NCBI GenBank assembly: GCA_044225175.1
Contig: JBGAJA010000006.1
Coordinates: 65,049-129,048 of the forward strand
DNA length: 64,000 nt
Origin: Candidatus Omnitrophota bacterium
GTDB taxonomy: Bacteria > Omnitrophota > Gorgyraeia > Zapsychrales > Fredricksoniimonadaceae
Direction of reading: 5' to 3'
Positions 15,725 through 44,557 of this stretch are shown here, in pieces. Position numbers and translations under genes: made by a program. Numbering within the stretch: the first letter of the stretch is position 1; each line of letters opens with the position of its first letter. The notes under the pieces are model-generated. The model saw only the letters and a program-made list of their open reading frames with translations. It did no database searches and had not been told where the DNA came from.

Positions 15725-16111
15725 ATGACAATGCCCCCATCAAATCCTATTAAGATATTAGTTGTTGATGATAAGAAGGTGATCCAAGATTTCTTCGAGA
15801 TTACTTTAGGTTATTATGGTCATTTGATTACTGGAGTCCAGGATCCTCGTCTTGCAACCAAGATTGTTAAAGAACATTCTTTTGATATTGCCTTCATTGA
15901 CATGGTGATGCCGGAAAAGGAAGGCGTAGAAGTCTTAAAATCACTTAAAGAAATTTGTCCTACACTGCCTGTAGTTATGATGAGTGGATATTCCATTCAA
16001 GAAAAGAAGGATGAGGCCCTACGTTTAGGGGCCATGGGTTGTCTTAAGAAACCTTTTGAGTTAGAAGATGTTAGAAAAGTAGTTAAACAAGTGATTGATA
16101 GGGATCTATGA
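15725..16111 (+). CDS. Single-domain response regulator (CheY-like receiver, no output domain)
   Basis: KILVVDD … DIAFIDMVMP (the phospho-acceptor Asp) … MMSGY … KKPF. The ATG at 15725 has an AGGAG RBS. The upstream part of the track ORF overlaps the kinase and is probably not translated. Confidence 0.75.
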   Translation: MTMPPSNPIKILVVDDKKVIQDFFEITLGYYGHLITGVQDPRLATKIVKEHSFDIAFIDMVMPEKEGVEVLKSLKEICPTLPVVMMSGYSIQEKKDEALRLGAMGCLKKPFELEDVRKVVKQVIDRDL

Positions 16112-16866
16112 GCACTAAAAACACTGTATCTGATTTACATTTAGATTCTTCTGAAAGAACCCTTCTTCATGGAGAAATTATTCAAAATAAAGTTTTCTTA
16201 AGAAAGCTATACATTGATTTTTATCGACGATTTCAAAAAGTAATCAAAGATCTTCCATCAAATGGATGTTACGTTGAGCTAGGTAGCGGAGGAGGATTCA
16301 TTAAAGAAGTTCTGCCTCGCGTCATCACATCTGATGTAATGCCTCTTCCTATGATTGATCAGCAATTTTCTGCACTTCAAATGCCTTTTGCTTCAGAAAG
16401 TGTCGATGCATTTATGATGATCAATGTTTTTCATCATATTCCTAATGCAGAGCTATTTTTGAAGGAAGCAAGTCGATGCCTTAAAAAAGATGGAAAAATT
16501 ATCATGGTTGAGCCGGCCAACACACCTTTTGCACGATGGATTTACCAGAATTTTCATCATGAAGATTTCGATGTTAAAGGGGAGTGGTTCTTTGAATCAA
16601 AAGGGCCCTTATCTTCGGCTAATGGTGCATTGCCTTTTATTGTTTTTTTGCGTGACCGACTAGAGTTTACAAAGAAATTTCCCGAACTCAGAATTACAAA
16701 AATTGCACCGGATACGCCATTTCGTTATTTGCTTAGCGGAGGGTTATCTTCTAATTTTTCAATGCCGGGATTTTCGTTTGAATTCTTTAGTGCGTTAGAA
16801 AGAGTATTGACGCCAGTTAATCCTCTGTTGGGGATGTTCTACACGATTGAAATTACAAAAACTTGA
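16108..16866 (+). CDS. Class I SAM-dependent methyltransferase
   Basis: Motif I VELGSGGG and motif II/III regions (…DAFMMINVFHHIP…KKDGKIIMVEP). Confidence 0.6.
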   Translation: MSTKNTVSDLHLDSSERTLLHGEIIQNKVFLRKLYIDFYRRFQKVIKDLPSNGCYVELGSGGGFIKEVLPRVITSDVMPLPMIDQQFSALQMPFASESVDAFMMINVFHHIPNAELFLKEASRCLKKDGKIIMVEPANTPFARWIYQNFHHEDFDVKGEWFFESKGPLSSANGALPFIVFLRDRLEFTKKFPELRITKIAPDTPFRYLLSGGLSSNFSMPGFSFEFFSALERVLTPVNPLLGMFYTIEITKT

Positions 16867-18274
16867 TCTTCTTCATCGCAAATCCACACATCTTAAAGAG
16901 TAATAATCCATGCCTGAATCGTTGAATTTGCGTTGTACCGTATTGACGGTTCTTGTAGCGGATAGGAACTTCAACAACCTTAAGATTTTGTTTAATGGCT
17001 CCAAATATGAGGTCAAAATCACCAAAGGGGTCAAAATCACCGAAATAGTGTCGATTGGCAGCTAGTTCTGTGTAATGGTGCCGTAAGATGACCTTCGTAC
17101 CACACAATGTATCTTTGAATCTCTGCCCTAGAAGCCAGCTGAAGAATAGTCCAAAGAATTTATTAGCAATCAGATTTAAGAAACGCATGGCTTCATCTTC
17201 CATAGGATAAACAAGTCTACAACCATTGATAAATTCTCCCTTACCAGTTTGGATTGCGTGATAGAACTTAGGTAATTCTTCAGGGGGTACGGTTAAATCT
17301 GCATCTAAAATCATCAGAATGTCACATGTGGCATGGCTAAATCCTAAGCGGACCGCGTCACCTTTGCCTTTGCCTTGTTGCCTAAAGAGTTTGATGTCCT
17401 TATGAGGATATTTTGACATAACACGCTCAACTTCTTCATAGGTCCCATCCTTAGAATGGCCTTCTACAAAAATAAATTCCTGATGTTTTCCAAATTCAGG
17501 AGTACGTGTTATGGCCGATTCAATATTTCCTTTTTCATTACGACAAGGAACAAGGATCGTTACAGAGTAGTCTTGTCGTAGCTCTATCTGGGGGCGGGCA
17601 ATGATAAAGTGGCTCAAAGTTAAACCATTAAATAAAGGTAGCTTGGCAAGGAACTTGTTGATTACATAACTAATACCCCAAATGTTAACAGGTAAAAGTA
17701 TGGCCCGATCTGTGCGGATATTCTCAAAGTTACTCAAGTTTAGGAAATTGATAATATCTTTTTCTGTTAGCCAATTCTGTCCAATGCGAGGAATAGTAAG
17801 GTGACACTTTTCAGCAGCTTTTAAGATGAGTTGCCATAAATAACTATGATACTCAATAATAATTCTTGTATCAGAAGTGCAGAATTTTCTTAATGAATTA
17901 AAAAAACTTTCAATATCTAAAAGATCCTCTACCAGTACAGGAAGGATGATGTAGTCAAATTTTTCTTGAGAATCAAAATGATCAATAGTGCCTTTGACAA
18001 ATTGAAGATGAGGGTATTTAGATTTTCCAAGTTCAATCATTTTTGGGCTTAAGTCAATGCCGACCCCAATAGAAGGTTCTAGGCTGGCCAATAAATCACC
18101 GGAGCTGCAACCAACAGCTAATATTTTTTTGCCTTTAGGAATAAAAAATCGGTACTGCTTTTGTCTAAGGCTCTCATAATACTTTCGCCGATGACTTAAT
18201 TTCTCATAATGATTGGCAATATGATCGTAGTGTTGTGAAATTTTTTGAAGTGTGATTTGGTCTGAGCTGCTCAT
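16853..18274 (-). CDS. Fusion protein: N-terminal SAM-methyltransferase domain plus C-terminal family-2 glycosyltransferase domain
   Basis: N-terminal motif I ILAVGCSSGDL. The C-terminal half has the GT2 signature (ILVPCRNEKGNIE… ILDADLTVPPEE). Confidence 0.65.
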   Translation of the reverse strand: MSSSDQITLQKISQHYDHIANHYEKLSHRRKYYESLRQKQYRFFIPKGKKILAVGCSSGDLLASLEPSIGVGIDLSPKMIELGKSKYPHLQFVKGTIDHFDSQEKFDYIILPVLVEDLLDIESFFNSLRKFCTSDTRIIIEYHSYLWQLILKAAEKCHLTIPRIGQNWLTEKDIINFLNLSNFENIRTDRAILLPVNIWGISYVINKFLAKLPLFNGLTLSHFIIARPQIELRQDYSVTILVPCRNEKGNIESAITRTPEFGKHQEFIFVEGHSKDGTYEEVERVMSKYPHKDIKLFRQQGKGKGDAVRLGFSHATCDILMILDADLTVPPEELPKFYHAIQTGKGEFINGCRLVYPMEDEAMRFLNLIANKFFGLFFSWLLGQRFKDTLCGTKVILRHHYTELAANRHYFGDFDPFGDFDLIFGAIKQNLKVVEVPIRYKNRQYGTTQIQRFRHGLLLFKMCGFAMKKIKFL

Positions 18275-18285
18275 ACATTCTCTTT

Positions 18286-21200
18286 TTAACGTTGATTTTG
18301 TAAACGATTGTATATCACAGAAAGAAAATAATCTACTTTGCCTTTTGGTTGAAGCTTTAATTCTTTGCTTTTCAAAGCCAATACAAAAGCTTCACGGTAC
18401 TGTCCTTTTTCTAAAGCTGTCATGGAAGCCGCAAATAGAGTTTCCGCCTGTTTTTCAGTAGAGTTAGTCAAAAGAAAAGCATCCGCAAAATCAGATGTTT
18501 TTATCAGCTCAACAGACAAAGGTTGGTCAGAGAAATCAATAGCATATTGATTGTTTATCTTTGGATTAATCAAAATGACATGGGGAAAGTGATTAAGAAG
18601 ATCATCAGCAAAGATCTTCTGCGTAAAGCTGTTAACCCCATAACCGAATGGGCGTTCGCTATAAAGATTGAAATAAAAACTTTGAGGGTATAGTGAGAAA
18701 AGCTCTGAACTTTCTTTAAAGGAGTAAGTAGGGCTTAAAAGGAATGAGAAGTAAGAATTGGCAAACAATAAGGCAGAGTTTTGGTCGAAGAATATATTTC
18801 GATCAGCCGTTGTCATAATAGTTGCTCCGGGATATTGGGCATACAGTTTCTTGTTAAAAGTCAGGATATGGTTTGTTAAGCCTGACAATTGAGTACGGAA
18901 TAACATTGTGTGAATAATGGTTTGAAGACCAAATACCAGAATCAAGACGATCGTTAATCGGATGAAGATTTTCTTTTTGGTTAATTGCTCTAAATAAAAT
19001 ATGGGAAGGATGATGCTTAATAAGCAGATTCCAGGGATCAGATAGTGAGGGGAATAATGGCTTATTGTGATTAGGAATACAAATAAGACACAAGCGTTTA
19101 ATGCCCATAAGAATTGTGCGCTTCGATGGCGGTAGTTTCGAAAGAGTTTAATAGAACTCCAAAGCAATATTCCACCGGTAATTAGTAAGATCACGCAGTA
19201 AGTCCACAGGATTTTATTAAAGAATATACTTAGAAAATGTGGTGCATCAAGGACTCGAGGCCCGCCAAAAAGCAGATTGCCTGAGAATATTCCAATTGTC
19301 CATTTCCATAAAAGGGGGTATTGCGCATAAATCGGAATGGTCCATACAAAAAAAGACATGATAGTCATGCCTATAAAAAGAAGCTTTTTCTTCCACGGGA
19401 CCATGAGGAAGATAAAAATAAATATAGCAAGAAAGTTTAACTTGGTAGCTATGCCTAAGCCAGCGACTAATCCCAAGAGCAATGTTCCTATTAACTCTGC
19501 TTTTGGAGTTCTCGCATAAAATAGAATACATATGGCTATGCCTAGTAAATTGATGATGCTTATTAATAATGGTTCACAGCTAATATTGGCGCTAATAGGA
19601 AGAGTTGCTAAATTGGAATCCAGGGATTTGATGGTCAAAAGAAATAGGCCTGGGATTTGACTTAAAATTGCGGCAATTTTATTACGTGTTTTATAGAAAA
19701 TGTAAGCTGCCAGGGCAGATGATGTCAGAAAGACCCCCAGCACTAAAACAATGTGGATGGCATGCAGATAATATTCAGGATTTAAAAGTACATTATGGAC
19801 TGTATCTGTAATGGGGCGCCCTAAATTTAAGACGCTGATGACACATGCATACAATAATTGAAGTGGAGTCCCAGGATGATCAATATGGGTGATACTGATG
19901 CCTTTTAGAATATGAATTCCATTAAAAAGATAAACATAGCAAGGATCAGCATATTGCCAAAAAGGTCCTGCGGCAGATCTTAAAAGAAAAGATAATAAAG
20001 CAACCACGCAAGGGATTATAAAAACAAAACTATAAGAAGCTAATGTTGAAAGAATGGGATGAGTTCTAAGTTGAATCTGCTCGATAGAATTTTTATAGGA
20101 CCATCTTCGTCCAAAATCCACGATCGGTTTTTCAAAGTACATCCAAGAGAGTTGGGCACATACGATTGTCATTAAGAATGCACCGATCGTTGTGAAAGCA
20201 TCTGTCCATTGAAGAATTTGAGGCGAACTTTGATTTAAAAATAGAGCATGCATCACCCCAGAAATACCCTGATGAAACAAGTACATGCCGTAGGCAATGA
20301 TTCCTAAGCGGACAATCCAAGGATTACGTACAACAGCTGTAATGACTCCTCGTTTTTCACAGAGAGCAATTAACAATACACACGCATATCCGAAGGCCAG
20401 CAACGAATAGCCATACCACACCATATTCTTTGATAGGACGTTTTTGTCTTTGCACATAATGGCAAATACACAAGCAAAGATGATGGCGGTTGTGATATAC
20501 AACAACGGAATACATCGATGAATTAGATTTTTAATAGTCTTTTTACGCAACAGGAGAGCACATAACACCCCAATCATTAAGGCATCCATACGAGAAGGCA
20601 TCATTAAGAAGCCCCAGAACTCACCATGAGGGACATTGGAGAATAAAAGCATTCTCAACACAGGAGCTGAAAAGATCAGAAAGACAACAACATAGGGTAA
20701 GCTGCGTACCGAACAGGCATAAATCAAAAGGGGAAGGACTAGATAGAATTGTTCTTCAACAGCTAAGGACCAAGTTATTCCAAGCCAGGGGCTTCCCCAT
20801 TCATTAATATTGGCCATAGCAAAATTCTGTGTAAAAGTTAAATAATAAGCAAGGCCAATAGATTTAGGGTCGTTGATAAATGATTTTAAATGAGGATTGA
20901 TCGATGGGAAATGAACAATAGCCCATGTGATCACTTGTAAAAGGAGAATCCATAAGATATAAAGCGGTAATATTCGACAAAAACGACGAATGTAAAAGGT
21001 CTGAAAGAAATTGGTTGCGTGTTTATTATTTAATAAGATTCCACCTAATAAAAATCCAGAAAGCACAAAGAACAGATCCACTCCGCTCCACGTTAACCAT
21101 AAGCATTGATAGATTGTTAAAAGCCAGGGAGTCGAATTGATTTGATCAAAAACGGGGCCTTTTTGGATTTGACAGACGACATAGTGCCAAATCAACACTT

Positions 21201-21294
21201 GAAGAATGGCAAGGCCTCTTAGTCCATCCAATTCAGGGATACGAATTGCAGCAACAGAAATAGATTGATTGAAATCTTTAAAAAATTTAATCAT
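18286..21294 (-). CDS. Fusion: N-terminal acyltransferase-3 (OafA/YrhL-type) domain plus a C-terminal ~600-aa polytopic membrane domain. The C-terminal domain is paralogous to the next two genes and belongs to an unrecognised GT-C-like family.
   Basis: AT3 hallmarks: LDGLRGLAIL…H, GVDLFFVLSGFL, FYIRRFCRILPLY. The C-terminal domain starts at …AAGPFWQYADPCYVYLFNGIHILKG and ends with a TPR-like tail (…TEKQAETLF…ALKSKELKLQPKGKVDYFL…). Both regions align with the ORFs at 21298-23037 and 23043-24800. Confidence 0.6.
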   Translation of the reverse strand: MIKFFKDFNQSISVAAIRIPELDGLRGLAILQVLIWHYVVCQIQKGPVFDQINSTPWLLTIYQCLWLTWSGVDLFFVLSGFLLGGILLNNKHATNFFQTFYIRRFCRILPLYILWILLLQVITWAIVHFPSINPHLKSFINDPKSIGLAYYLTFTQNFAMANINEWGSPWLGITWSLAVEEQFYLVLPLLIYACSVRSLPYVVVFLIFSAPVLRMLLFSNVPHGEFWGFLMMPSRMDALMIGVLCALLLRKKTIKNLIHRCIPLLYITTAIIFACVFAIMCKDKNVLSKNMVWYGYSLLAFGYACVLLIALCEKRGVITAVVRNPWIVRLGIIAYGMYLFHQGISGVMHALFLNQSSPQILQWTDAFTTIGAFLMTIVCAQLSWMYFEKPIVDFGRRWSYKNSIEQIQLRTHPILSTLASYSFVFIIPCVVALLSFLLRSAAGPFWQYADPCYVYLFNGIHILKGISITHIDHPGTPLQLLYACVISVLNLGRPITDTVHNVLLNPEYYLHAIHIVLVLGVFLTSSALAAYIFYKTRNKIAAILSQIPGLFLLTIKSLDSNLATLPISANISCEPLLISIINLLGIAICILFYARTPKAELIGTLLLGLVAGLGIATKLNFLAIFIFIFLMVPWKKKLLFIGMTIMSFFVWTIPIYAQYPLLWKWTIGIFSGNLLFGGPRVLDAPHFLSIFFNKILWTYCVILLITGGILLWSSIKLFRNYRHRSAQFLWALNACVLFVFLITISHYSPHYLIPGICLLSIILPIFYLEQLTKKKIFIRLTIVLILVFGLQTIIHTMLFRTQLSGLTNHILTFNKKLYAQYPGATIMTTADRNIFFDQNSALLFANSYFSFLLSPTYSFKESSELFSLYPQSFYFNLYSERPFGYGVNSFTQKIFADDLLNHFPHVILINPKINNQYAIDFSDQPLSVELIKTSDFADAFLLTNSTEKQAETLFAASMTALEKGQYREAFVLALKSKELKLQPKGKVDYFLSVIYNRLQNQR

Positions 21295-21297
21295 GAA

Positions 21298-23037
21298 TTA
21301 CTTCGGGATTTTGTTATAAATGAAAGCCAGCAAATATTCGACCTTGCCCCGCGGCTCATATTTTAAATCTCTACTTTTTAATGCCAGAGCAAAGGCTTGT
21401 TGAAAATCGCCTTTTTGCAAGGCCGCTTCAGCGAGCGATAAAAGTTCATTAGCTTGCTTTTCTGTTGATCCAGTTAATAGATAGGCATTGGCAAACGATG
21501 ATTGGTCAATCTTTTTAAGCGTGTAGGCAGATTGTTCGATATCTGTATTAGAAAGAAAAATGACGCAAGGATAGTTAGCAAGTAAATCTTCTCCATAAAC
21601 TCGTTGTTGAGAATCCCATATTCCATAGCCATCGTATTGGTCTTGAATGATTTTATCTGGATTAAAGTAATAAGCATGAGGGGAAGCTTTTTTTAGTTCT
21701 TCGTTCTCATGATGAAGAGCATATCTATTGCCAAACAGCAGGGCGTATTCTTGGTTAAGGTATAGGGAAACAAGATTGGAGTTAGAAGCAATCACTGTGC
21801 AGTTAGGGTATTGGGAGTAGATCCGGTCATGAAGGCCCATTGTATCATTTGTCAGATTTGATAAATTGTGATGATACATCACCGCTTGAGTTGTGGTTAC
21901 AATCATGAACAATGGCACAAATGACATAACTAGTTTATTAGCTAGTTGAGTCTGGAACAGACGATTAATGCTTAACAAGAATAGGATGGGGCTGGTAGAA
22001 CAGATCCCTAAGACTAAATAATGCCATGAGAAATGTTTGGCAATAATACCAAAATGTAATAATGTCCCGATACATGCTGCCCATAAAAAAAGAGCATTTT
22101 TATTAGTGCGGTCCTTGATGAATTGAATCGAACTTAAAATAAAAGCTCCTAGAGTTATCAAAACGAAGAACCAATGTTGAGGAAAAATATCTTTGAATAA
22201 ATGGGAGGCGAAGGTATTCCAGTCAACTACCCCTGTTGTACCTGAGCCGAGGGCGCCTGTGTGAGTGACAATGCTTTGAGCCCATTGCCATACTAAAGGA
22301 TATTTAGAAAGTATAGGTAATGTGCAGATAAAAAATGATACAAAAGAAACAGTCATCAGAATAAGTTTCTTTCGTCCTGGGGTCACAATGAGGGCTGAGA
22401 TTAAAAATGTAAAGAAAATTAGTCTTGTAGACAGGCCAAGACCACAGACAAGGCCCATAATCAAGATCCATTTTATTTGGGAAGAAGAATCCTTTGCAAA
22501 ATATAAAGCCAAGAAGCATAAAGTAAAAAGATTAACAATACTTATTAATAAAAGCTCAGGGTTTACATTCGCACTGATAGGTAGGATTGGAAGGTTTGAG
22601 GCGTTTGATTTAATGATTAATGCACAAAGCCCAGGCAGTTGTGTTAGCAGTGCAGCCCATCTATTGCTGGTTTTGTGATAAATATAAACAGCTAATAAAA
22701 CATAGGTTACAAAAGTTCCTAGAATTAACAGAAAATGAACTGCCTGAAAATAGAATTCGGGGTGTACTAAAGCTCTGTGGATAATATCTGGAGTTGAAAG
22801 GCCGATATTAAAGATCCAAATTGTAATGAGAATTATCAGTTGAAGAGGAATACCTGGATGTTGAATTAGGGTGGGAGTGATGCCCTTAAGCATATGAAGC
22901 GCATTAAAGTAGTAAATGTACGAAGGATCGCAGTATTGCCAAAGAGGTCCTCCTGCACTCTTAAGAAAGAAAGCCAAGGTGATAATCACTATGGGAATGA
23001 TTAGTGCAAAACTATATGTTTTTAATAATTTCAGCAT
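21298..23037 (-). CDS. Polytopic membrane protein, paralog 2 of the unrecognised GT-C-like family (membrane domain plus C-terminal soluble TPR-like tail)
   Basis: N-terminal …SAGGPLWQYCDPSYIYYFNALHMLKGITPTLIQHPGIPLQL…. C-terminal …AYLLTGSTEKQANELLSLAEAALQKGDFQQAFALALKSRDLKYEPRGKVEYLLAFIYNKI. It is clearly homologous to both neighbours. Confidence 0.55.
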   Translation of the reverse strand: MLKLLKTYSFALIIPIVIITLAFFLKSAGGPLWQYCDPSYIYYFNALHMLKGITPTLIQHPGIPLQLIILITIWIFNIGLSTPDIIHRALVHPEFYFQAVHFLLILGTFVTYVLLAVYIYHKTSNRWAALLTQLPGLCALIIKSNASNLPILPISANVNPELLLISIVNLFTLCFLALYFAKDSSSQIKWILIMGLVCGLGLSTRLIFFTFLISALIVTPGRKKLILMTVSFVSFFICTLPILSKYPLVWQWAQSIVTHTGALGSGTTGVVDWNTFASHLFKDIFPQHWFFVLITLGAFILSSIQFIKDRTNKNALFLWAACIGTLLHFGIIAKHFSWHYLVLGICSTSPILFLLSINRLFQTQLANKLVMSFVPLFMIVTTTQAVMYHHNLSNLTNDTMGLHDRIYSQYPNCTVIASNSNLVSLYLNQEYALLFGNRYALHHENEELKKASPHAYYFNPDKIIQDQYDGYGIWDSQQRVYGEDLLANYPCVIFLSNTDIEQSAYTLKKIDQSSFANAYLLTGSTEKQANELLSLAEAALQKGDFQQAFALALKSRDLKYEPRGKVEYLLAFIYNKIPK

Positions 23038-23042
23038 TGATA

Positions 23043-24800
23043 TTATTCCTTTTGAATGTGCGGGTAGATCAAGCCAAGGTAATATTCAACCTTACCTCGT
23101 GGTTGGAAATTGAGTTCCCTGGCTTTTAAGGCTAACGCGAAAGCTTGTTGATAGTTGCCTTGTTTTAATTGATTCAAAGCTCCTAAGAAAAAGTTCTCTG
23201 CTTGTTTCTCTGTTGAATTAACGAGTAAATAAGCTTGGGCGTATTTAGATTCTTCGATTGGTTTGACAATAAAAGGGTATTGTGAGAAATCAGAATTTAA
23301 TTTAAGAAAAATACTGCAAGAACCTGCATTTAAAAGATCATCAGCATAAATTCTTTGTCCTTTGAAATTTCTAATGCCATATCCATCATCATAATTTTCT
23401 GGCCGGGGCTCTGTTTGTTCGGAATTAAAATAAAATGTTTTAGGATACAAAGCGTAGATCGCTTGGTCAGCTTTATGGAGGGTGCCATAATTGCCTAAGA
23501 ATAAGCCGTGAGATTGCGTCAGGTAAATATTTGTAGCAGTGGTTGCTGAAGGAAGGATGGAGCAGTTGGGATATTGTGTATGAATTTTTCCGCGTATCTG
23601 ATCTAAGTCGTGGGTGAATTCTTTTACTTGATGATAATAAGAATAAGCCTGAAATGAGCTTTGAATGGAAATGAGTACAATAACAATTAATGTGATTCGT
23701 TTCATAAGCACACTGTGAGGAGTCAATTGAAGATAAAATAATAAGAGTATTGGGCCTAATAAAAGCAGAGAGGGAAGAAGATAGTGGAAAGAAAAATGTT
23801 TAGCTGTGATCAGGATCTGAAGAAGGCTTACCAAACAAAGGGTCAATAACATCTGGACATTCCGGTTCTTCCACTGATTCTTAATTCTTATTAAACACCA
23901 TGAAAAAATTCCAAATGTAAAGAATATTAAGAATTTGAAATGAAGTACAATTGCTGTTAAGTGTGACCAAAATTCAGTCCAATTAATCATCTCTTGTTGG
24001 CCTAATCCATAGTGCCCGGAGTGAGTGATTAGACTGATTATCCAATCAAATAGCTTTGGGTATTGAGCAATGATGGGAATGGTCCACACAACAAAGGACA
24101 GTAGGGATATCGCTATAAAAATAGGTTTGATTCTCCAAGAGACAATGAGCAATCCTGCTAAACATAGAGGAAGGAAAACGAGTTTGATCGCTAATCCAAA
24201 TCCACATACGATTGCTAAGAACACGCTGGCTTTCCATTGATCTTTGGGAGTTTGCGCAAAATATAATTTAAGAAAGAAAAGGTTAAAAAGGTTGATGCTG
24301 CTAATAAGAAATGGTTCGGGGCTAACGTTAGATACAATGGGTGTCACAGCAAAACTGGAGTCAAAGGATTGAATAGTTAGAAGACTTAAAGCGGGTAATT
24401 GTATTAATAGCGCTGCACTTAGATCGTTTGTTTTTTTGTAAATAAAATGACCTAGAAGAATAAATGTTGCCGCAGTGAGAATGGTTAAAGTGACAAATGT
24501 CAGATTTAAATAAAATTCTGGGTGAAGAAAAGCTTCATTGGTAATGTCTGTTTTGGAATGGTTAATATTAAAGAGTCGAATGATAGCTAGAATCAGAAGT
24601 TGTAAAGGGGTGCCTGGATGGGCTGTTTGTGTTGGAGAAATGCCATTAAGCATGTGAATGGCATCAAAAAGATATGTATAACAGGGATCAGCATATTGCC
24701 AAAAAGGGCCAGCAGCGCATCTAAGGAAGATTGAGAAAACTAATGTGAGAAAAGGGATAATGAGCAAGAAAGCCCATCGGAATCGGATAATAAAATTCAA
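23043..24800 (-). CDS. Polytopic membrane protein, paralog 3 of the same family
   Basis: N-terminal …AAGPFWQYADPCYTYLFDAIHMLNGISPTQTAHPGTPLQL…. C-terminal …AYLLVNSTEKQAENFF…ALKARELNFQPRGKVEYYLGLIY. Confidence 0.55.
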   Translation of the reverse strand: MNFIIRFRWAFLLIIPFLTLVFSIFLRCAAGPFWQYADPCYTYLFDAIHMLNGISPTQTAHPGTPLQLLILAIIRLFNINHSKTDITNEAFLHPEFYLNLTFVTLTILTAATFILLGHFIYKKTNDLSAALLIQLPALSLLTIQSFDSSFAVTPIVSNVSPEPFLISSINLFNLFFLKLYFAQTPKDQWKASVFLAIVCGFGLAIKLVFLPLCLAGLLIVSWRIKPIFIAISLLSFVVWTIPIIAQYPKLFDWIISLITHSGHYGLGQQEMINWTEFWSHLTAIVLHFKFLIFFTFGIFSWCLIRIKNQWKNRNVQMLLTLCLVSLLQILITAKHFSFHYLLPSLLLLGPILLLFYLQLTPHSVLMKRITLIVIVLISIQSSFQAYSYYHQVKEFTHDLDQIRGKIHTQYPNCSILPSATTATNIYLTQSHGLFLGNYGTLHKADQAIYALYPKTFYFNSEQTEPRPENYDDGYGIRNFKGQRIYADDLLNAGSCSIFLKLNSDFSQYPFIVKPIEESKYAQAYLLVNSTEKQAENFFLGALNQLKQGNYQQAFALALKARELNFQPRGKVEYYLGLIYPHIQKE

Positions 24801-24950
24801 ATACTAGTCCTCATTTATATACAAAATTTATTAATCGGGTTATGGTACTATAAAATAATATTCTTTAAAAGAATTAAAACAATCCAAAAATAAATCTTAA
24901 TAAATTCTCTAAATTACGATATTATGTCTGCAATTAATTAGTCAGAAATT

Positions 24951-25676
24951 ATGTCTAACCTCAATGGCTCCATGGAATCTTCTGTTTTAAAAACATTACA
25001 TGTTGTACGCGGTTCTCGCAGGTACAATTCATGGCTTTATGATCGTATTAAAAGTCATTTGCGTGGTTCTGTGTTAGATATAGGCAGTGGTTTGGGAGAT
25101 ATTGCTCGTCAGTTTGTGAATCCTTCCATTGATGAGGTTGTCCTCTCTGATTATGCTGATGAAATGCTCAATTTATTAACACAAAATCCTCCTCCATTAA
25201 AAAAGTACCGCATCACCAAGTTAGATATTACTAATCCTCACACCTTTAATGATTATCCAAAAGAACAAGCAGATACGATCACTTGTATTAACGTGTTGGA
25301 GCATATTCAAGATGATGTGAGGGCCCTTAAACATATGAAGAGTTTGCTTAAAAAAGGTGGCAAGGTGGTTATTTTTGTTCCCGCATTACCTGCAATTTAT
25401 GGCACTCTAGATACACATGTAGAGCATTATCGACGTTATACCAAAAGAAGTTTGGGCCGAGTTTTTAAAGAGGCAGGTTTTACGGTTCAAGATTCTTATT
25501 ATATGAACATGTTTGGTATTTTAACCTGGTTTTTTGCTGGACGTATATTAAGACAGAAGAAGTTTCACAAAAATGCTTGTCATATGTTGGATCGCATTGT
25601 GCCTTCTTTAAGGGCAATCGAGAATGTTTTTAATCCACCTTTGGGGCAATCATTAATCATGGTTGGGCAATCCTAA
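24951..25676 (+). CDS. Class I SAM-dependent methyltransferase
   Basis: Motif I VLDIGSGLGD and motif post-II …GGKVVIFVPA. It is transcribed divergently from the paralog triplet. Confidence 0.6.
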   Translation: MSNLNGSMESSVLKTLHVVRGSRRYNSWLYDRIKSHLRGSVLDIGSGLGDIARQFVNPSIDEVVLSDYADEMLNLLTQNPPPLKKYRITKLDITNPHTFNDYPKEQADTITCINVLEHIQDDVRALKHMKSLLKKGGKVVIFVPALPAIYGTLDTHVEHYRRYTKRSLGRVFKEAGFTVQDSYYMNMFGILTWFFAGRILRQKKFHKNACHMLDRIVPSLRAIENVFNPPLGQSLIMVGQS

Positions 25677-25682
25677 ATAGTA

Positions 25683-27113
25683 ATGATCTTATTTTCCAAG
25701 ATTCACTCCTTCTATCTTTTTCATGCGCAGTTAATTGAACGAATTTTGTTCTTAATTGCTATTCTTAGCGCTGTTTTAATTCGTTATTCCTTCCTCAATC
25801 GAGGATTCTTTTATGATGAACTCTTTCTCGTAACTCACTTTCTTCAATCGCCTGAGCTTTTCGGTCCTTCTTTTAAAGATTATACAACTGCTAATCATAT
25901 GGGTTATACGATCTGTTCGTATGTGACAAGTCATTTATTTGGCATGAAAGAATGGGCTGTACGTTTGCCAGCCTTATGTTTTGATATAGCAAGTATGTGT
26001 GTCTTTGGGTATTGGACAAGAAAGTATTTTGGAAGAGCAGTTGCATCGGTTGGAATGATTTTATTTGTTTTTTCTCCAGCAAGTATTATTTGGAGCTCCT
26101 CTGCACGCGGATACTCGGCAATGATATTCTTCACATTAGCTTCCAGTATTCTTTATTTTCGTCTGCTACAACAAACTTCCAAAAGAACGCTGTTTTTGTT
26201 CATAGTTACAAACCTTATTGGGTTTTCCTTCCATTTGTATTTTGCTTTTATCGAGATTGTTCAATTGTTTCATTTGGTATTGTTAGCTTTTGCCAGTAGT
26301 CGATTAAACATATCTAGAAAGAATTTGGTTAATTTATCGATAGGGATGGGGATTACATGCATCTTATCGGTTCTTATCTATGCTCCGATCATGTTCAAGT
26401 TTCTCATGCAGCAAACAGGTGTACATGGGGAATTGATTCCATATTTTCCTTTGAAAGTATTTACAGATTTAATATCTGTCTCATGGTTGCCCTTAGGATT
26501 AATTTGTTTGATTGTGATGATTGTTGGATTTAAATATTTTAATCCCAGATTAGTGTATTGGCCCGTCTATGTTTTATTGTTATTCTTGATTCCATTGCCC
26601 ATTTGGTTGTCGAAACCATGGTTTTTATATCCTCGTTTCTTTTCTTTCTTATTGCCTTTTATTTTTCTTGGACTTGCCAATGGGATGGTCATGATTCCCA
26701 GGCTTTTTCCAAAGCCTTTTCAAATCATCCTTGGACTATGTATGGTGGCAGTCCTATGTGCGATTCTGTGGTCTTGGAAGAACAACTCTGCGAATGTCGT
26801 CCAAGAATTCAATAGCACTTTTAAAGAATCTGTGGCCTTTGCTGAAGGTATATCCAATAGTCAGGTGCGCTTTTGTTCATTTGGGAGTGAAGATCAGTTT
26901 TTTCAATATTATTCCAAACGGCCAGTCATTCAATTTAAGACTTTTGAAGAATTTTTATTATTTTATAATCAGAAGATAGATTCTTTGTGTTTTGCTATTA
27001 TGGGACCACCGATGAATGATGAACATAAGAAGATTTTTCTCTTTATGCTCACGCATTCCCAATTTAAATCTTTTGATAAAATTAATGTGTTTCATATAGG
27101 TGAAAGGCTGTAG
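25683..27113 (+). CDS. GT-C membrane glycosyltransferase, GT39/GT83 (PMT/ArnT)-like
   Basis: First-loop acidic motif …FFYDELFLV…, then …WAVRLPALCFDIASMCVFGYWTRKYFGRAVASVGMILFVFSPASIIWSSSARGYSAM…. This is typical of the ArnT/PMT 4-amino-arabinose or mannosyl transferase fold. Confidence 0.5.
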   Translation: MILFSKIHSFYLFHAQLIERILFLIAILSAVLIRYSFLNRGFFYDELFLVTHFLQSPELFGPSFKDYTTANHMGYTICSYVTSHLFGMKEWAVRLPALCFDIASMCVFGYWTRKYFGRAVASVGMILFVFSPASIIWSSSARGYSAMIFFTLASSILYFRLLQQTSKRTLFLFIVTNLIGFSFHLYFAFIEIVQLFHLVLLAFASSRLNISRKNLVNLSIGMGITCILSVLIYAPIMFKFLMQQTGVHGELIPYFPLKVFTDLISVSWLPLGLICLIVMIVGFKYFNPRLVYWPVYVLLLFLIPLPIWLSKPWFLYPRFFSFLLPFIFLGLANGMVMIPRLFPKPFQIILGLCMVAVLCAILWSWKNNSANVVQEFNSTFKESVAFAEGISNSQVRFCSFGSEDQFFQYYSKRPVIQFKTFEEFLLFYNQKIDSLCFAIMGPPMNDEHKKIFLFMLTHSQFKSFDKINVFHIGERL

Positions 27114-28757
27114 ATGATTATTGTTATTCTTTTAGCGCTCTTAGGTTTGCCTTTATACTTTGGTCTTTTTAGCGAGCATATTGTGGGTGGTCATGATGCA
27201 GCATCAGGGCTAATCAGAGCTATTTGCATGGATAAATATTTGGGTGATGGGCAGATATTGCCTCGTTGGCTTCCAGATGTTAATTTTGGCTTTGGTTCTC
27301 CAATGTTCAACTTTTATCCTCCGTTTTTCTATTTTTTATCTGTTGTACTCTCTAAAGTTACGCACAATATGCTCTTAGCTATGAATTGGGTTTGTATTAT
27401 TCTGTGGATTGTTTCAGGGATTGGCATTTATTTGTTAGCGAAAGAATTTTGGGGGCGTAAAGGTGGGTTGGTATCGGCTATTGCCTACATGTATGCTCCG
27501 TATCATATCCAGGATCTTTATGTTCGAGGAGCTTTTGCGGAATTTAGCGCATTTGCATTTTTTCCTTTGATCATTTTAGCCTTTTACAAGATTAGTAAGA
27601 AAATTGAAGTGAAATATGTCGTACTGGGGACGCTGGGTATTACTTCTTTAAGTCTTACTCACAATGTGATGAGTATGCTCTTTCTTCCAGTCTTGATGTC
27701 ATATATTGTTTTCTTATCGATCTTAAGAAAGAATATTTACATTTTTTTGTTTAATTTTGCAATGGTTGTGGTGGGGCTCATGATGGCTGCCTTTTTTTGG
27801 TTGCCCGCATTTAATGAGAAGAGTTCTTTAAACATGCTTCTTTTGGTCCTCTTTCATTATGATTTTCATCAGCACTTTCTTTCTTTAGCTCAATTGTTTA
27901 ATACTCCATGGGCGGTTAATCCTGAGGATCAAACAAAGTTGCCTTATCATGTAGGATTGTTTCCTGTCATTTTAGTGGTGGTTTCTTTAGGTCTTGTGAT
28001 TAAAAGGTTCAAAGAAAATAAAGAGATGTCTCTGCATTATCTATTTTTTCTTTTTGTAACTATTGTCGCTATGTTGTTTACTCTGCCCATTACTGAGATC
28101 ATTTGGGAAAAAGTCATTTTATTAAGATGTATTCAATTTCCATGGCGTTTATTGGCGATCATCAGTTTTTTTGTCTCGTTAATGGCAGGTGGAATCATGC
28201 TCATAAATAAATCAAAAGTGGTTAGTAATTTTATTCTTATTGGAGTCATGATTGTCATTATGCTTTCATCCGCGAAATTAATTTCCAGCATAAAGTTTAA
28301 GAATATAGATCAAGTTAAGATCAAAGAACACCTTTCTGAGCTTACTTTTTTGGGAGAAGGTGAATATACTCCTCGGTGGATTATGAAAGTGCCAACATCA
28401 AAACTGCCAGACAAATTTATGTTCTTACAGGGTAGTGGAACTCTCACAGAATATAAAAAGATTAATGCTGTAGAGCACACTATACGTGTGATGTCTTTTC
28501 AACCTGCCATGTTATGTTTTGGTTCTTTTTATTTTCCAGGATGGGAAGCTTTTATAGATGGTAAGTCAACGCCTCTCAGGGCCGACAATCAATATGGGCT
28601 TGCGGTCTTTGTGGTTCCTCCTGGAGACCATCTAGTGAAAATGGTCTTTAGAACAACTCCTATTCGACAACTAGCTGTGAGGATTTCTTGGGGAGGATTA
28701 ATCTTGTTTATCATTGGATTATTTCTTATTCGAAAATCAAATTGGTCAAGATCATGA
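27114..28757 (+). CDS. YfhO/PTPS-related-domain membrane protein (predicted GT-C glycosyltransferase)
   Basis: N-terminal …GGHDAASGLIRAICMDKYLGDGQILPRWLPDVNFGFGSPMFNFYPP…. The C-terminal …FPGWEAFIDGKSTPL… is typical of the 6-pyruvoyl-tetrahydropterin-synthase-related (YfhO-like) membrane family. Confidence 0.5.
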   Translation: MIIVILLALLGLPLYFGLFSEHIVGGHDAASGLIRAICMDKYLGDGQILPRWLPDVNFGFGSPMFNFYPPFFYFLSVVLSKVTHNMLLAMNWVCIILWIVSGIGIYLLAKEFWGRKGGLVSAIAYMYAPYHIQDLYVRGAFAEFSAFAFFPLIILAFYKISKKIEVKYVVLGTLGITSLSLTHNVMSMLFLPVLMSYIVFLSILRKNIYIFLFNFAMVVVGLMMAAFFWLPAFNEKSSLNMLLLVLFHYDFHQHFLSLAQLFNTPWAVNPEDQTKLPYHVGLFPVILVVVSLGLVIKRFKENKEMSLHYLFFLFVTIVAMLFTLPITEIIWEKVILLRCIQFPWRLLAIISFFVSLMAGGIMLINKSKVVSNFILIGVMIVIMLSSAKLISSIKFKNIDQVKIKEHLSELTFLGEGEYTPRWIMKVPTSKLPDKFMFLQGSGTLTEYKKINAVEHTIRVMSFQPAMLCFGSFYFPGWEAFIDGKSTPLRADNQYGLAVFVVPPGDHLVKMVFRTTPIRQLAVRISWGGLILFIIGLFLIRKSNWSRS

Positions 28758-29467
28758 AAAGCATTTCGATTGTTATTCCAGCAAAAGATGAAGAGAAGCG
28801 TTTGCCGATTTTTCTTAAAACAGTGATTGAATTCTGTAATCGCTCTACACATTCCTATGAGATCATTATTGTTGATGATGGCAGCAAGGATGCTACAGCA
28901 TCTTTGGCACTAGAATTTCAAAAAGAGTTTTCTTCATTGAAGATCATTTCATTGGACCGCAATCACGGAAAAGGTTTTGCGGTCAAGCAAGGATTCTTGG
29001 CTTCCCATGGAGATATTGTTTTATTCTTAGATGCGGATGGTTCAACGTCACCTACGGAAATTGAGCGACATCTATATCTATTAGATCAAGAAAATGATGT
29101 GGTGATTGGATCAAGGGTTTTAAGGGATGGGCAATCTCAGGTTAAGAGTCGTTTTTATCGCAAGATTATGGGTCATGTGTTCAATTATTGTGTCTCATCT
29201 TTTTTGATCAAAGGAATCAAAGATACTCAATGTGGTTTTAAGATGTTTAAAAGTACAGCTGCGAAAAATATATTTCAGAAAGTTTATTTGGAAGGGTTTG
29301 GTTTTGATTTGGAAGTCCTATTCTTGGCGCAAAAGTTTCATTACCGCATTAAAGAAGTTCCCGTCAACTGGTCTCACGTGCAAGGAAGCAAGGTCAATAT
29401 TTGGAAAGATTCTTTACGAATGTTCTTCAATATTCTAGAAATCAAAAAATTACATAAAGATCTTTAG
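28754..29467 (+). CDS. Family-2 glycosyltransferase, polyprenyl-phosphate sugar synthase-like (DPM1/ArnC/GtrB type)
   Basis: ISIVIPAKDEE… IIIVDDGSKD… LFLDADGS…; about 237 aa and soluble. The ATG at 28754 overlaps the previous stop (ATGA). Confidence 0.8.
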   Translation: MKSISIVIPAKDEEKRLPIFLKTVIEFCNRSTHSYEIIIVDDGSKDATASLALEFQKEFSSLKIISLDRNHGKGFAVKQGFLASHGDIVLFLDADGSTSPTEIERHLYLLDQENDVVIGSRVLRDGQSQVKSRFYRKIMGHVFNYCVSSFLIKGIKDTQCGFKMFKSTAAKNIFQKVYLEGFGFDLEVLFLAQKFHYRIKEVPVNWSHVQGSKVNIWKDSLRMFFNILEIKKLHKDL

Positions 29468-44228: not shown

Positions 44229-44247
44229 TTATTATCAAGGAGAGGTT

Positions 44248-44544
44248 ATGAAAGATAAGATTATAGAAGCGGCAGGGAAAACATGGAGATTTTTAGGGCA
44301 AAATGGTGAAGTGAATGTTGATCAATTACCTAAAGTTCTCAAAGAAAAAGAACATGTTATTTTTCAAGCTCTTGGCTGGCTGGCCCGTGAGGATAAATTA
44401 AGTTATTCTACCAAGAATCGTCGTACGTTCGTTACGCTCGTTGAAGGTGAGTTGCAAGCTTTTAATAGTTTGATGTATAACATTCAACAAGACCAAAGTG
44501 CCCCCCAAAAAACTAAGGGTTCAAACGGAAGGCTTAAGAAATAA
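44248..44544 (+). CDS. Hypothetical small protein (possible winged-helix fold)
   Basis: 98 aa from the ATG at 44248, with a GGAGAGG RBS. It lies between glgB and the GH57 gene. No family was recognised. Confidence 0.3.
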   Translation: MKDKIIEAAGKTWRFLGQNGEVNVDQLPKVLKEKEHVIFQALGWLAREDKLSYSTKNRRTFVTLVEGELQAFNSLMYNIQQDQSAPQKTKGSNGRLKK

Positions 44545-44557
44545 TTAGAAAGTATTT

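What the first reader, a model, noticed from the sequence alone, without database searches (positions are those of the whole stretch)
18286..21294. Acyltransferase-3 (OafA-type) domain fused in-frame to one copy of the unknown GT-C-like family
The 1002-aa ORF has all AT3 hallmark motifs in its first ~380 residues (LDGLRGLAIL…H; GVDLFFVLSGFL; FYIRRFCRILPLY). It continues without a stop into a full-length copy of the paralog domain. AT3 enzymes O-acylate extracytoplasmic glycans such as O-antigen, peptidoglycan and Nod factors. A covalent fusion to a putative glycosyltransferase implies coupled glycosyl transfer and O-acylation of the same substrate. I am not aware of this architecture being characterised.
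Basis: seen in the sequence. Interest (0 to 1): 0.6.

Follow-up and report, generated by a model that had tools for sequence, protein, structure and literature searches.

The report
Acyltransferase fused to membrane glycosyltransferase
An uncultured Omnitrophota bacterium encodes one 1002-residue membrane protein that joins a sugar O-acylating domain (AT3) to a lipid-linked-sugar glycosyltransferase module of an unnamed family, so it probably adds a sugar and an acyl group to the same surface glycan; this domain pairing is rare and unstudied, but both halves belong to known enzyme superfamilies.

Summary
ORF 18286..21294(-) is an uninterrupted 1002-aa frame. Residues 20-382 are a full AT3 domain (PF01757, 96 bits) with intact R-X10-H, RXXR, GVDLFFVLSGFL and WSLAVEEQFY motifs. 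Residues ~414-1002 are a complete copy (40-41% identity) of the two stand-alone paralogs directly upstream.

A confident AlphaFold model of that module (pLDDT 88.5) matches only GT-C glycosyltransferases (ArnT, Pmt4, ALG9, STT3, DPY19, AftA, Emb). It hits no Pfam or NCBIfam model. It belongs to a large unnamed family (about 2,000 clusters at 50% identity) with an invariant Asp in the first outer loop.

The family's usual neighbour is a GT2 of the polyprenyl-phosphate-sugar-synthase type, often with a SAM-methyltransferase, and some genomes fuse all three. The AT3 fusion was seen only here (0 of 187 other family ORFs; 1 of the top 150 representatives). Unfused AT3 genes abut family genes in a few relatives, and another lineage has an AT3 fused to a PMT-type GT-C.

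The gene lies in a strain-variable glycan island. Coupled glycosylation and O-acylation is plausible but inferred. The junction itself has no independent sequence support. Verdict: new variant of known kinds, moderate interest.

The parts
18286..21294 (-). Fused gene, 1002 aa: an AT3 acyltransferase domain, a cytoplasmic linker and a GT-C-fold module
   Evidence: ORF listing. The exact protein is on public record as P0001. An independent strain, L167, reproduces the first 101 aa with 98/101 identical.
20149..21237 (-). AT3 (Acyl_transf_3, PF01757) domain, residues 20-382
   Evidence: Pfam E=2.6e-27, 96.2 bits, model positions 2-323 of 326. A4 alignment invariants: G71, V72, F75, F76, S79, G80, R103, R107, W175, E180, E181.
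21184..21219 (-). AT3 TM1 motif R26-X10-H37 (RGLAILQVLIWH)
   Evidence: Translation check. The motif is described for OafA/OafB in PMC9558356.
20974..20985 (-). AT3 RXXR motif (R104-F-C-R107) in the first cytoplasmic loop
   Evidence: Translation check. The motif is described for Oac in PMC9558356.
20038..20139 (-). Junction/linker, residues 386-419 (YFEKPIVDFGRRWSYKNSIEQIQLRTHPILSTLA), K/R-rich and inferred to be cytoplasmic
   Evidence: Sequence. It has no stop codon, and there is no ATG/GTG/TTG between codons 393 and 429. It carries 5 K+R.
18835..20055 (-). Membrane part of the GT-C-fold module, residues ~414-820
   Evidence: Family profile match 414-1001. AF2 pLDDT 88.5 and pTM 0.87. Foldseek top hits are ArnT, Pmt4, ALG9, STT3, DPY19, AftA, ALG3 and Emb.
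19945..19947 (-). Codon of D450 (module D46), the invariant Asp of the 'DPxYxY' motif in the first extracytoplasmic loop; candidate catalytic base or metal ligand
   Evidence: Invariant in 100 family representatives. It lies between TM1 (H9-38) and the juxtamembrane helix H48-60 in the model. Translation check.
19870..19878 (-). H473-P474-G475 of the 'DHPGTPLQ' family signature
   Evidence: P70 is invariant and H69 and G71 are >=90% conserved in A9. This motif was used as the search pattern that recovered 148 and 178 relatives.
18289..18834 (-). C-terminal soluble alpha/beta plus helical-hairpin (TPR-like) domain, residues ~821-1002, inferred to be extracytoplasmic and to recognise the acceptor
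   Evidence: AF2 secondary structure: strands E421-541 and helices H543-597 in module numbering. In distant family members this domain is replaced or extended by discoidin and CBM_4_9-like domains.
21298..23037 (-). Stand-alone paralog, 579 aa, 3 nt upstream of the fused gene
   Evidence: It is P0134.
23043..24800 (-). Stand-alone paralog, 585 aa (TTG start), first gene of the four-gene minus-strand unit
   Evidence: The public call P0135 is 49 codons shorter.
16853..18274 (-). SAM-methyltransferase + GT2 fusion (473 aa), 11 nt downstream of the fused gene; candidate polyprenyl-phosphate sugar synthase that supplies the donor
   Evidence: Pfam Glycos_transf_2 E=1.6e-20 and Methyltransf_31 E=1.2e-9. 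The best NCBIfam similarities are AglJ, dolichyl-P hexose transferase, ArnC and PgfS, all below their equivalog cutoffs. An orthologous fusion lies next to the family gene in L001.
24951..30873 (.). Rest of the glycan island: methyltransferase (24951..25676 +), weak PMT_2-like protein (25683..27113 +), PTPS_related membrane protein (27114..28757 +), GT2 (28688..29467 +) and PMT_2 GT-C (29464..30873 -)
   Evidence: Pfam. The PTPS_related protein is 45% identical to the neighbour of the family genes in L081.

Best explanation
The gene encodes a genuine bifunctional inner-membrane enzyme of an Omnitrophota bacterium. It sits in a strain-variable surface-glycan modification island.

Shown:
- An intact AT3 domain with all hallmark motifs is joined, through a ~30-residue basic linker, to an intact GT-C-fold module.
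- That module belongs to a large unnamed family with an invariant Asp in the first outer loop.

Inferred mechanism:
1. The adjacent methyltransferase-GT2 protein loads a sugar from a nucleotide sugar onto polyprenyl phosphate at the cytoplasmic face.
2. The lipid-linked sugar is flipped by an unidentified flippase.
3. The three GT-C paralogs, with D450 (in the fused copy) as base or metal ligand, transfer that sugar to an extracytoplasmic glycan acceptor. Their C-terminal soluble domains select the acceptor. LPS is one candidate, because LptF/G are encoded nearby.
4. The AT3 domain passes an acyl group, most likely acetyl from acyl-CoA, through its transmembrane pore. It esterifies a hydroxyl of the sugar just added or of a neighbouring residue.

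Covalent tethering places both reactions on the same acceptor. The topology is coherent. The 10-helix AT3 core ends in the cytoplasm, and the module starts in the cytoplasm, as shown by relatives whose module is fused to cytoplasmic GT2 and methyltransferase domains. No extra helix is therefore needed.
For: - AT3 domain: PF01757 at 96 bits over the full model, with motifs verified.
- GT-C fold: AF2 pLDDT 88.5 and pTM 0.87. The top 19 Foldseek PDB hits are all GT-C enzymes with probability 0.98-1.0, and unrelated GPCRs follow at probability <0.45.
- Family: 2085 representatives at E<=1e-3 and 663 at E<=1e-30. D46, P70 and Y347 are invariant, and H69, G71, E103 and K214 are >=90% conserved in 100 representatives. 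All of these are retained in the fused copy.
- Donor pathway: GT2 is the commonest immediate neighbour, in 20 of 135 flanking ORFs, usually with a SAM-methyltransferase. GT2+MTase+family is a single ORF in L063, and MTase+family in L155. The window GT2 is most similar to AglJ, DPM-type, ArnC and PgfS enzymes.
- Recurrent link to transmembrane acylation in the closest clade: two family genes in L081 are each followed by a stand-alone AT3; L163 has an AT3 49 nt after the family gene; the P0122 loci have MBOAT+GDSL next to the family gene.
- Operon-like packing, with gaps of 5, 3 and 11 nt.
- Variable island: absent from the sister genome L166.
- An independent strain, L167, reproduces paralog -> AT3 start.
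- AT3 topology and the extra 11th helix in AT3-SGNH proteins: PMC9558356.
Against: - No biochemical data exist for any member of the GT-C-like family.
- Structural similarity is moderate (TM 0.40-0.46).
- No donor, acceptor or acyl group can be named.
- No GtrA-type flippase is visible in the island.
- AT3 adjacency is rare across the family as a whole: 6 of 164 loci with my AT3 profile, and AT3 is not in the top 25 neighbour families. Acylation is therefore not an intrinsic part of the family's function.
- The AT3 genes next to family genes elsewhere are <=27% identical to the fused domain. They do not show an unfused ancestral state.
- The full-length model is poor in the AT3 half, with pLDDT 30-75, so no domain interface is supported.
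- The junction is seen in only one assembly.
Confidence: 0.6

Rival explanations
1. The fusion is an assembly or sequencing artefact, or a very recent stop-codon loss of no functional consequence. On this view an AT3 gene and a third stand-alone paralog are really separate adjacent genes, like the paralog-AT3 pairs in L081.
For: - Only one sequence in 5.8 billion carries both halves.
- The source is an uncultured-organism assembly.
- Neighbouring genes in this operon are separated by only 3-11 nt, so loss of one stop could merge two genes.
- Stand-alone AT3 genes abut family genes in relatives.
- L167 ends before the junction.
Against: - Both halves are in the same frame, with a stop-free linker.
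- There is no ATG/GTG/TTG between codons 393 and 429. A single restored stop would therefore leave the downstream module without a canonical start at the position where its paralogs start.
- Both domains are complete and collinear with their profiles.
- The gene order in relatives is family->AT3, not AT3->family, and those AT3s are a different lineage.
- N-terminal fusion of this module to other cytoplasm-ending partners (GT2-MTase) occurs naturally.
- Across 2,718 bp the independent strain L167 differs only by substitutions, with no indels.
Confidence: 0.12
2. The GT-C-fold module is not a glycosyltransferase in this protein. It acts instead as the acceptor-binding or transfer partner of the AT3 domain, taking the role the SGNH domain has in OafA, OafB and OatA. 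Alternatively, the family transfers a non-sugar group or acts on a lipid such as lipid A, as ArnT does.
For: - AT3-only proteins are suspected to need partners (PMC9558356).
- The best structural hit is ArnT, which modifies lipid A.
- No sequence family membership could be established.
- LPS transport genes are nearby.
Against: - The fused copy keeps every family-invariant residue, including D450, as do its two unfused paralogs. The module therefore looks catalytically competent rather than degenerate.
- The family is overwhelmingly found without AT3 and with GT2 sugar-loading enzymes.
- Distant members carry carbohydrate-binding-type C-terminal domains.
Confidence: 0.15
3. The two halves work in series on the donor rather than on the acceptor. 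The AT3 domain O-acylates the polyprenyl-phosphate sugar at the outer face, and the tethered GT-C module then transfers the already acylated sugar.
For: - Covalent linkage of an acyl-translocating pore to a lipid-linked-sugar binding enzyme.
- The partner GT2 is fused to a methyltransferase, which suggests that donor sugars are decorated before transfer.
Against: - Purely inferential; nothing computed here bears on the order of the two reactions.
- The AT3 enzymes listed in the review read here modify glycans such as O-antigen, LOS, capsule/EPS and pilin glycans (PMC9558356).
- No structural model of the interface was obtained.
Confidence: 0.1

Closest known systems
AT3-only O-acetyltransferases (Shigella phage Oac/OacA, Salmonella WbaK, Legionella Lag1) and AT3-SGNH enzymes (OafA, OafB, OatA)
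   Same: Same Pfam domain (PF01757). It has the R-X10-H and RXXR motifs and a 10-helix transmembrane acyl-transfer core. Like these enzymes it sits in a surface-glycan locus.
   Different: There is no SGNH domain and no dedicated 11th helix. The C-terminal partner is itself a ~590-aa polytopic GT-C-fold enzyme. The closest AT3 relatives share only 36-42% identity and are uncharacterised metagenomic proteins. No NCBIfam equivalog matches.
GT-C glycosyltransferases of multi-component transmembrane glycosylation systems (ArnC/ArnT, GtrB/GtrC, CsbB/YfhO, DPM1/PMT)
   Same: GT-C fold with an invariant Asp in the first outer loop. The gene is linked, and in some genomes fused, to a GT2 of the polyprenyl-phosphate-sugar-synthase type. 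It has a C-terminal soluble domain.
   Different: There is no detectable sequence relationship to PMT, PMT_2, ArnT, STT3, YfhO, PTPS_related or any other Pfam/NCBIfam model. Its signature motifs are its own (DPxYxY, DHPGTP, THxGxYGxG, KHxxxHYLxP). The partner GT2 usually carries a SAM-methyltransferase. No GtrA-type flippase was seen.
Salmonella gtr operons in which 'family II GtrC' (OafB) is an AT3-SGNH acetyltransferase
   Same: Precedent for acyl transfer and Gtr-type glycosylation sharing one modification locus. The identification of OafB with family II GtrC is from my own knowledge; OafB as an AT3-SGNH O-antigen acetyltransferase is in PMC9558356.
   Different: There the acyltransferase replaces the GT-C enzyme. 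Here the two are covalently joined.
P0083 (uncharacterised 1013-aa metagenomic protein): AT3 + Pfam PMT domain
   Same: An AT3 N-terminal domain followed by a GT-C membrane module in one polypeptide.
   Different: The GT-C module is of the PMT (GT39-like) sequence family, unrelated in sequence to the family found here. The AT3 is 30% identical. It is also uncharacterised.

Membership tests
Acyltransferase-3 (AT3, PF01757; TmAT superfamily) | Match to the Pfam model above the gathering threshold over the whole domain | tested here: met
   96.2 bits against a cutoff of 31; residues 20-382 cover model positions 2-323 of 326.
Acyltransferase-3 (AT3, PF01757; TmAT superfamily) | R/K-X10-H motif in TM1 and RXXR motif in the first cytoplasmic loop (PMC9558356) | tested here: met
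   R26...H37 and R104-F-C-R107 were verified by translation. The columns are invariant or nearly invariant in 40 AT3 relatives.
Acyltransferase-3 (AT3, PF01757; TmAT superfamily) | Ten-helix transmembrane core with both termini cytoplasmic | tested here: inconclusive
   Full coverage of the Pfam model implies a complete core. However, the AF2 model of this half has pLDDT 30-75, and a simple hydropathy scan undercounts helices.
Acyltransferase-3 (AT3, PF01757; TmAT superfamily) | Acyl-CoA-dependent O-acylation of an extracytoplasmic carbohydrate | not testable with these tools
   Needs biochemistry or genetics.
AT3-SGNH subfamily (OafA/OafB/OatA type) | C-terminal SGNH/GDSL domain after an 11th helix | tested here: not met
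   There is no SGNH, Lipase_GDSL or PF19040 hit in the 1002-aa protein. The C-terminal part is the GT-C-fold module.
GT-C fold glycosyltransferase superfamily | Polytopic N-terminal membrane domain with the GT-C architecture | tested here: met
GT-C fold glycosyltransferase superfamily | Conserved acidic residue in the first extracytoplasmic loop | tested here: met
   D46 (D450 in the fused protein) is invariant in 100 family representatives. It lies between TM1 and the first juxtamembrane helix of the model. Residue-level superposition on ArnT or PglB catalytic residues was not possible.
GT-C fold glycosyltransferase superfamily | Use of a polyprenyl-phosphate-linked sugar donor | not testable with these tools
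   Indirect support only: GT2 neighbours in 20 of 135 flanking ORFs and GT2-MTase-family fusions.
Described GT-C sequence families (PMT/PMT_2, ArnT-type, STT3, YfhO, PTPS_related, DUF2079) | Significant match to the family's Pfam or NCBIfam profile | tested here: not met
   The module gives 0 Pfam families even at E<=5 and 0 NCBIfam families. It has no PDB sequence relative at E<=1. One distant member (P0127) carries a precomputed PF26626 hit that is absent from the local Pfam copy, so its identity is unresolved.
Three-component (GtrA/GtrB/GtrC-type) glycosylation system | GT2 polyprenyl-phosphate glycosyltransferase + small GtrA-family flippase + GT-C transferase encoded together | tested here: inconclusive
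   The GT2 and the GT-C are present and adjacent. No GtrA-like gene is present in the tightly packed island. ORFs shorter than 150 aa elsewhere in the window were not scanned.

The most novel reading that the evidence does not exclude
The fusion is a dedicated acyl-glycosyl transfer machine. The AT3 pore and the GT-C active site would form one composite extracytoplasmic catalytic centre. A sugar would then be O-acylated while still on its polyprenyl-phosphate carrier, or at the moment of transfer, and delivered as an acyl-sugar. In that case the GT-C module would do for an AT3-only enzyme what the SGNH domain does for OafA/OatA. This would also identify the long-sought partner type of 'AT3-only' acyltransferases.
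Probability: 0.1. Interest if true: 0.75.

Novelty: new variant of a known kind. Interest (0 to 1): 0.45.

Why it matters
AT3 proteins acylate many bacterial surface glycans. How stand-alone AT3 domains find and modify their acceptor, and whether they need a partner, is an open question raised in the field's own review (PMC9558356). A natural covalent fusion names a physical partner for one AT3 lineage: a periplasm-facing GT-C enzyme. It therefore offers a single-polypeptide system for testing whether glycosylation and acylation are coupled.

The work also defines a large GT-C-fold family that is present in many phyla, has no Pfam or NCBIfam model here, and has a clear signature and a conserved GT2/methyltransferase partner. 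That family deserves annotation in its own right.

Finally, the locus is a strain-variable island in Omnitrophota. It therefore probably contributes to surface-antigen diversity in a poorly known phylum.

Tried and rejected
- The full-length query against 5.8 billion proteins returned only AT3-half matches. It did not even list the close family members found later, so its candidate list was saturated and it cannot be used to exclude other fusions. I replaced it with profile searches and locus scans.
- My own AT3 HMM, built from close relatives, missed one of the two L081 AT3 genes. The '2 of 80' figure is therefore an underestimate. I replaced it with a Pfam census of flanking ORFs and a domain-agnostic test for N-terminal extensions.
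- The P0002 C-terminal module gave no Pfam hit beyond weak TPR matches, no hhalign relation to the family (probability 0.4) and only TPR hits in the PDB. It remains an unverified lead for a second AT3-GT-C-like fusion.
- The full-length AF2 model was uninformative about domain packing, because the AT3 half had low confidence.
- The look-up of encoding contigs had no record for P0001, so the source contig could not be fetched.
- The first genome scan, with the 16-sequence alignment, failed for lack of a conserved stretch. I repeated it with 8 closer sequences.
- The Kyte-Doolittle topology scan was too crude for helix parity.
- I considered a chlamydial origin from the GC content and rejected it, because PDH E1 places the window in Omnitrophota.
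Full report
**Observation**

The minus-strand ORF 18286..21294 is an uninterrupted 1002-codon frame starting with ATG. Pfam places a complete Acyl_transf_3 domain at residues 20-382, with 96.2 bits against a gathering score of 31 and model positions 2-323 of 326. They include the two motifs that the AT3 literature treats as functionally essential: R26-X10-H37 in TM1 and R104-x-x-R107 in the first cytoplasmic loop (motif definitions in PMC9558356).

After the linker YFEKPIVDFGRRWSYKNSIEQIQLRTHPILSTLA (20038..20139), the same frame continues into ~590 residues. These align end to end with the two stand-alone proteins encoded immediately upstream on the same strand: 21298..23037 (579 aa) and 23043..24800 (585 aa). 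Identity is 40-41%. There are only three copies in the window.

**What the C-terminal module is**

It hits no Pfam model even at E<=5, no NCBIfam model, and no PDB sequence. A word-indexed search found only 14 relatives. An exhaustive HMMER scan of 1.84 billion cluster representatives found 2085 at E<=1e-3 and 663 at E<=1e-30, typically 500-600 aa long. It is therefore a large but unnamed family.

Genome and metagenome scans with its signature peptide ([IT][DQA]HPG[TI]P[LV]Q) recovered it in Omnitrophota, Bacteroidota, Ignavibacteria, Aminicenantes, Acidobacteriota, cyanobacteria, Planctomycetota, Verrucomicrobiota, Rickettsiales, Rhodospirillales and others.

An AlphaFold2 model built on a 16-sequence family alignment is confident (mean pLDDT 88.5, pTM 0.87). 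Foldseek against the PDB returns GT-C glycosyltransferases for ranks 1-19: ArnT, Pmt4, ALG9, STT3/AglB, DPY19, AftA, ALG3, Pmt1/2 and EmbA/B/C. Their probabilities are 0.98-1.0 and TM-scores 0.40-0.46. Below them come unrelated GPCRs and transporters at low probability.

In an alignment of 100 diverse representatives, three residues are invariant: D46, P70 and Y347 in module numbering. H69, G71, E103 and K214, among others, are at least 90% conserved. D46 (D450 of the fused protein, codon 19945..19947) lies just after TM1, in the first extracytoplasmic loop of the model. GT-C enzymes carry their catalytic acidic residue in that position. The fused copy and both stand-alone paralogs retain all of these residues. 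At the sequence level, however, the family belongs to no described GT-C family.

**Donor pathway**

I extracted the ORFs immediately flanking the family gene in the 80 genome-contig loci and scanned them against Pfam.
- GT2 is the most frequent neighbour, at 16 of 68 upstream and 4 of 67 downstream ORFs.
- It is usually accompanied by SAM-methyltransferase domains.
- The neighbour in the Omnitrophota MAG L001 is the same methyltransferase-GT2 fusion as window gene 16853..18274.

That window gene is most similar, below equivalog thresholds, to AglJ, dolichyl-phosphate hexose transferase, ArnC and PgfS, which are all polyprenyl-phosphate sugar synthases.

A domain-agnostic search for N-terminal extensions among 187 family ORFs in 164 loci found two. 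L063 (an Opitutales MAG) has a single 1115-aa frame with GT2, methyltransferase and the family module. L155 is a truncated version of the same architecture. These fusions tie the family functionally to GT2 and methyltransferase. They also place the module's N-terminus in the cytoplasm.

**Is the AT3 fusion found elsewhere?**

Among the top 150 family representatives, only the window protein has an N-terminal extension; its match starts at residue 414, against 81 or less for all others. None of the 187 family ORFs in fetched loci is fused to AT3, and AT3 is not among the 25 commonest neighbour families.

Association with transmembrane acylation does recur, mainly in the closest clade.
- In L081 (family protein P0121, 44% identical), two family paralogs are each followed on the same strand by a stand-alone AT3 gene of 362 or 354 aa.
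- In the loci of P0122 (45% identical), the neighbours are an MBOAT and a GDSL-like protein.
- L163 has an AT3 49 nt after the family gene, and L039 has an AT3-SGNH gene abutting it on the opposite strand.

These AT3s are at most 27% identical to the fused domain. They therefore represent independent recruitments, not an unfused ancestor.

On the AT3 side, the domain is a promiscuous fusion partner. Among the top 120 AT3 relatives, most carry SGNH domains, about 16 carry GT2 or GT4 domains, and others carry TPR, methyltransferase or aminotransferase domains. P0083 joins AT3 to a module that passes the Pfam PMT threshold (26 bits against 22.7). This shows that an AT3-GT-C fusion arose at least once more, with a different GT-C family. 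No paper in the library mentions an AT3 domain together with GT-C. The AT3 reviews list only stand-alone, SGNH, NRF and racemase (VanT) architectures.

**Real gene or artefact?**

In favour of a real fusion:
- Both domains are complete and in one frame.
- The linker is basic, as expected for a cytoplasmic loop.
- There is no ATG, GTG or TTG between codons 393 and 429. Restoring a stop in the linker would leave the module without a canonical start at the place where its paralogs start.
- The topology needs no extra helix. The literature describes a 10-helix AT3 core that needs an 11th helix to place an SGNH domain outside, which implies a cytoplasmic C-terminus for the core.
- An independent assembly (L167, 94.5% DNA identity over 2,718 bp with no indels) reproduces the order 585-aa paralog, 579-aa paralog, start of the fused gene, with 98 of 101 residues identical.

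Against:
- L167 ends about 0.9 kb before the junction.
- No other sequence carries both halves.
- The source is an uncultured-organism assembly.

I put the artefact or trivial-read-through explanation at about 0.12.

**Genomic setting**

PDH E1 from the window has 80-92% identical homologues, and all named ones are Candidatus Omnitrophica/Omnitrophota. The four minus-strand genes are separated by 5, 3 and 11 nt, so they are probably co-transcribed: 585-aa paralog, 579-aa paralog, AT3-GT-C fusion and methyltransferase-GT2. Together with two further methyltransferases, a second GT2, two PMT_2-like proteins and a PTPS_related membrane protein, they form an island from ~16.1 to 30.9 kb.

In the sister genome L166 (E1 92% identical), the flanking PDH operon and the histidine-kinase/response-regulator/DUF192 genes are conserved. 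The slot between them, however, holds a shorter and different set: a PMT_2-like protein, GT2, UDP-galactopyranose mutase, GT2 and a GDSL protein. All three paralogs, the AT3 fusion, the methyltransferase-GT2 and the PTPS_related gene are absent. The island is therefore a strain-variable glycan locus of the kind that diversifies surface antigens. LptF/LptG are encoded at 9.1-11.3 kb, so LPS is one plausible acceptor.

**Mechanism proposed**

Shown: domain identities, motifs, fold, gene linkage and the variable-island context.

Inferred:
1. The methyltransferase-GT2 makes a polyprenyl-phosphate sugar, possibly methylated.
2. An unidentified flippase exposes it on the outer face.
3. The three GT-C paralogs transfer it to distinct positions or acceptors, using the invariant Asp. 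Their C-terminal alpha/beta plus helical domains recognise the acceptor. In distant members this domain is replaced or extended by discoidin or CBM-like domains.
4. In the fused enzyme, the AT3 domain carries an acyl group from cytoplasmic acyl-CoA across the membrane. It esterifies the sugar just installed or a neighbouring one.

The order of the two reactions, the sugar, the acyl group and the acceptor are all unknown. The full-length AlphaFold model was too poor in the AT3 half (pLDDT 30-75) to say whether the two active sites face each other.

**Verdict**

Both halves belong to known superfamilies. The GT-C half defines an unannotated family, and the specific AT3-GT-C pairing is, in the data examined, unique to this Omnitrophota lineage. 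I rate it a new variant of a known kind, with moderate interest (0.45). Its main value is as a natural single-chain system for testing how AT3 domains are coupled to extracytoplasmic glycosylation, and as a pointer to an uncharacterised GT-C family with a conserved GT2/methyltransferase partner.

Noticed in passing
window 16108..30873, compared with L166:5885-11130: The whole glycan island sits in a slot between the PDH operon and an HK/RR/DUF192 cluster. In a sister Omnitrophota genome (E1 92% identical) that slot holds a different, shorter gene set: a PMT_2-like protein, GT2, GLF, GT2 and GDSL. This is a replacement-type variable surface-glycan locus.
   Followed up: partly
window 23043..24800 (-): The public gene call for the 585-aa paralog (P0135, 536 aa) starts 49 codons later. 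That would delete TM1 and the invariant Asp. Homology to all family members supports the longer TTG-initiated form.
   Followed up: partly
L063:4909-8253 (+) and L155:3-2390 (+): The same GT-C-like family is fused at its N-terminus to GT2 + SAM-methyltransferase (1115-aa frame in an Opitutales MAG) or to methyltransferase (truncated contig). This puts the donor-synthesis and transfer steps in one polypeptide.
   Followed up: partly
P0083 (1013 aa), P0002 (894 aa; L165:5504-8188), P0114/P0117 (~1055 aa): Other long AT3 proteins were seen. P0083 is AT3 + a Pfam PMT GT-C module. P0002, the closest AT3 relative at 42% identity, is AT3 + an unassigned multi-TM module with a 'MLDDY' loop and TPR repeats. 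P0114 and P0117 have AT3 at the C-terminus after ~680 unassigned residues.
   Followed up: partly
L082:4744-8164 (and L083-L085): In the loci of the family member P0122, the neighbours are a YgjP-like protein, a GDSL-like 436-aa protein and an MBOAT. This is a different transmembrane O-acylation system next to the same GT-C-like family.
   Followed up: no
window 16108..16866 (+) and 16853..18274 (-): These convergent genes, a methyltransferase and the methyltransferase-GT2, overlap by 14 nt at their 3' ends.
   Followed up: no
window 36957..42179 (+) and 49678..53736 (+): Two very long ORFs have no credible domain. The 1740-aa one gives only spurious low-complexity Pfam hits and coincides with a strong GC-skew peak (0.35 at 38-40 kb). 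The 1352-aa one has no Pfam hit at all.
   Followed up: no
window 55856..57574 and 57587..59290 (+), 59744..60961 (+): There are tandem paralogous PilB/MshE-type secretion ATPases, both with MshEN + T2SSE domains, followed by a T2SSF platform protein.
   Followed up: no
window 62878..63999 (-): A DUF2079 predicted membrane protein is cut by the window end. It may be a further polytopic glycosyltransferase-like protein outside the island.
   Followed up: no
P0127 (distant family member): It carries a precomputed Pfam hit, PF26626, that is not reproduced with the local Pfam copy and is not mentioned in any paper searched. A newer Pfam release may already hold a model touching this family.
   Followed up: partly
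window 42240..48507 (+): A glycogen/alpha-glucan metabolism cluster is present: a branching-enzyme-like GH13 with CBM48, a GH57 with DUF3536, and a GH77 4-alpha-glucanotransferase.
   Followed up: no
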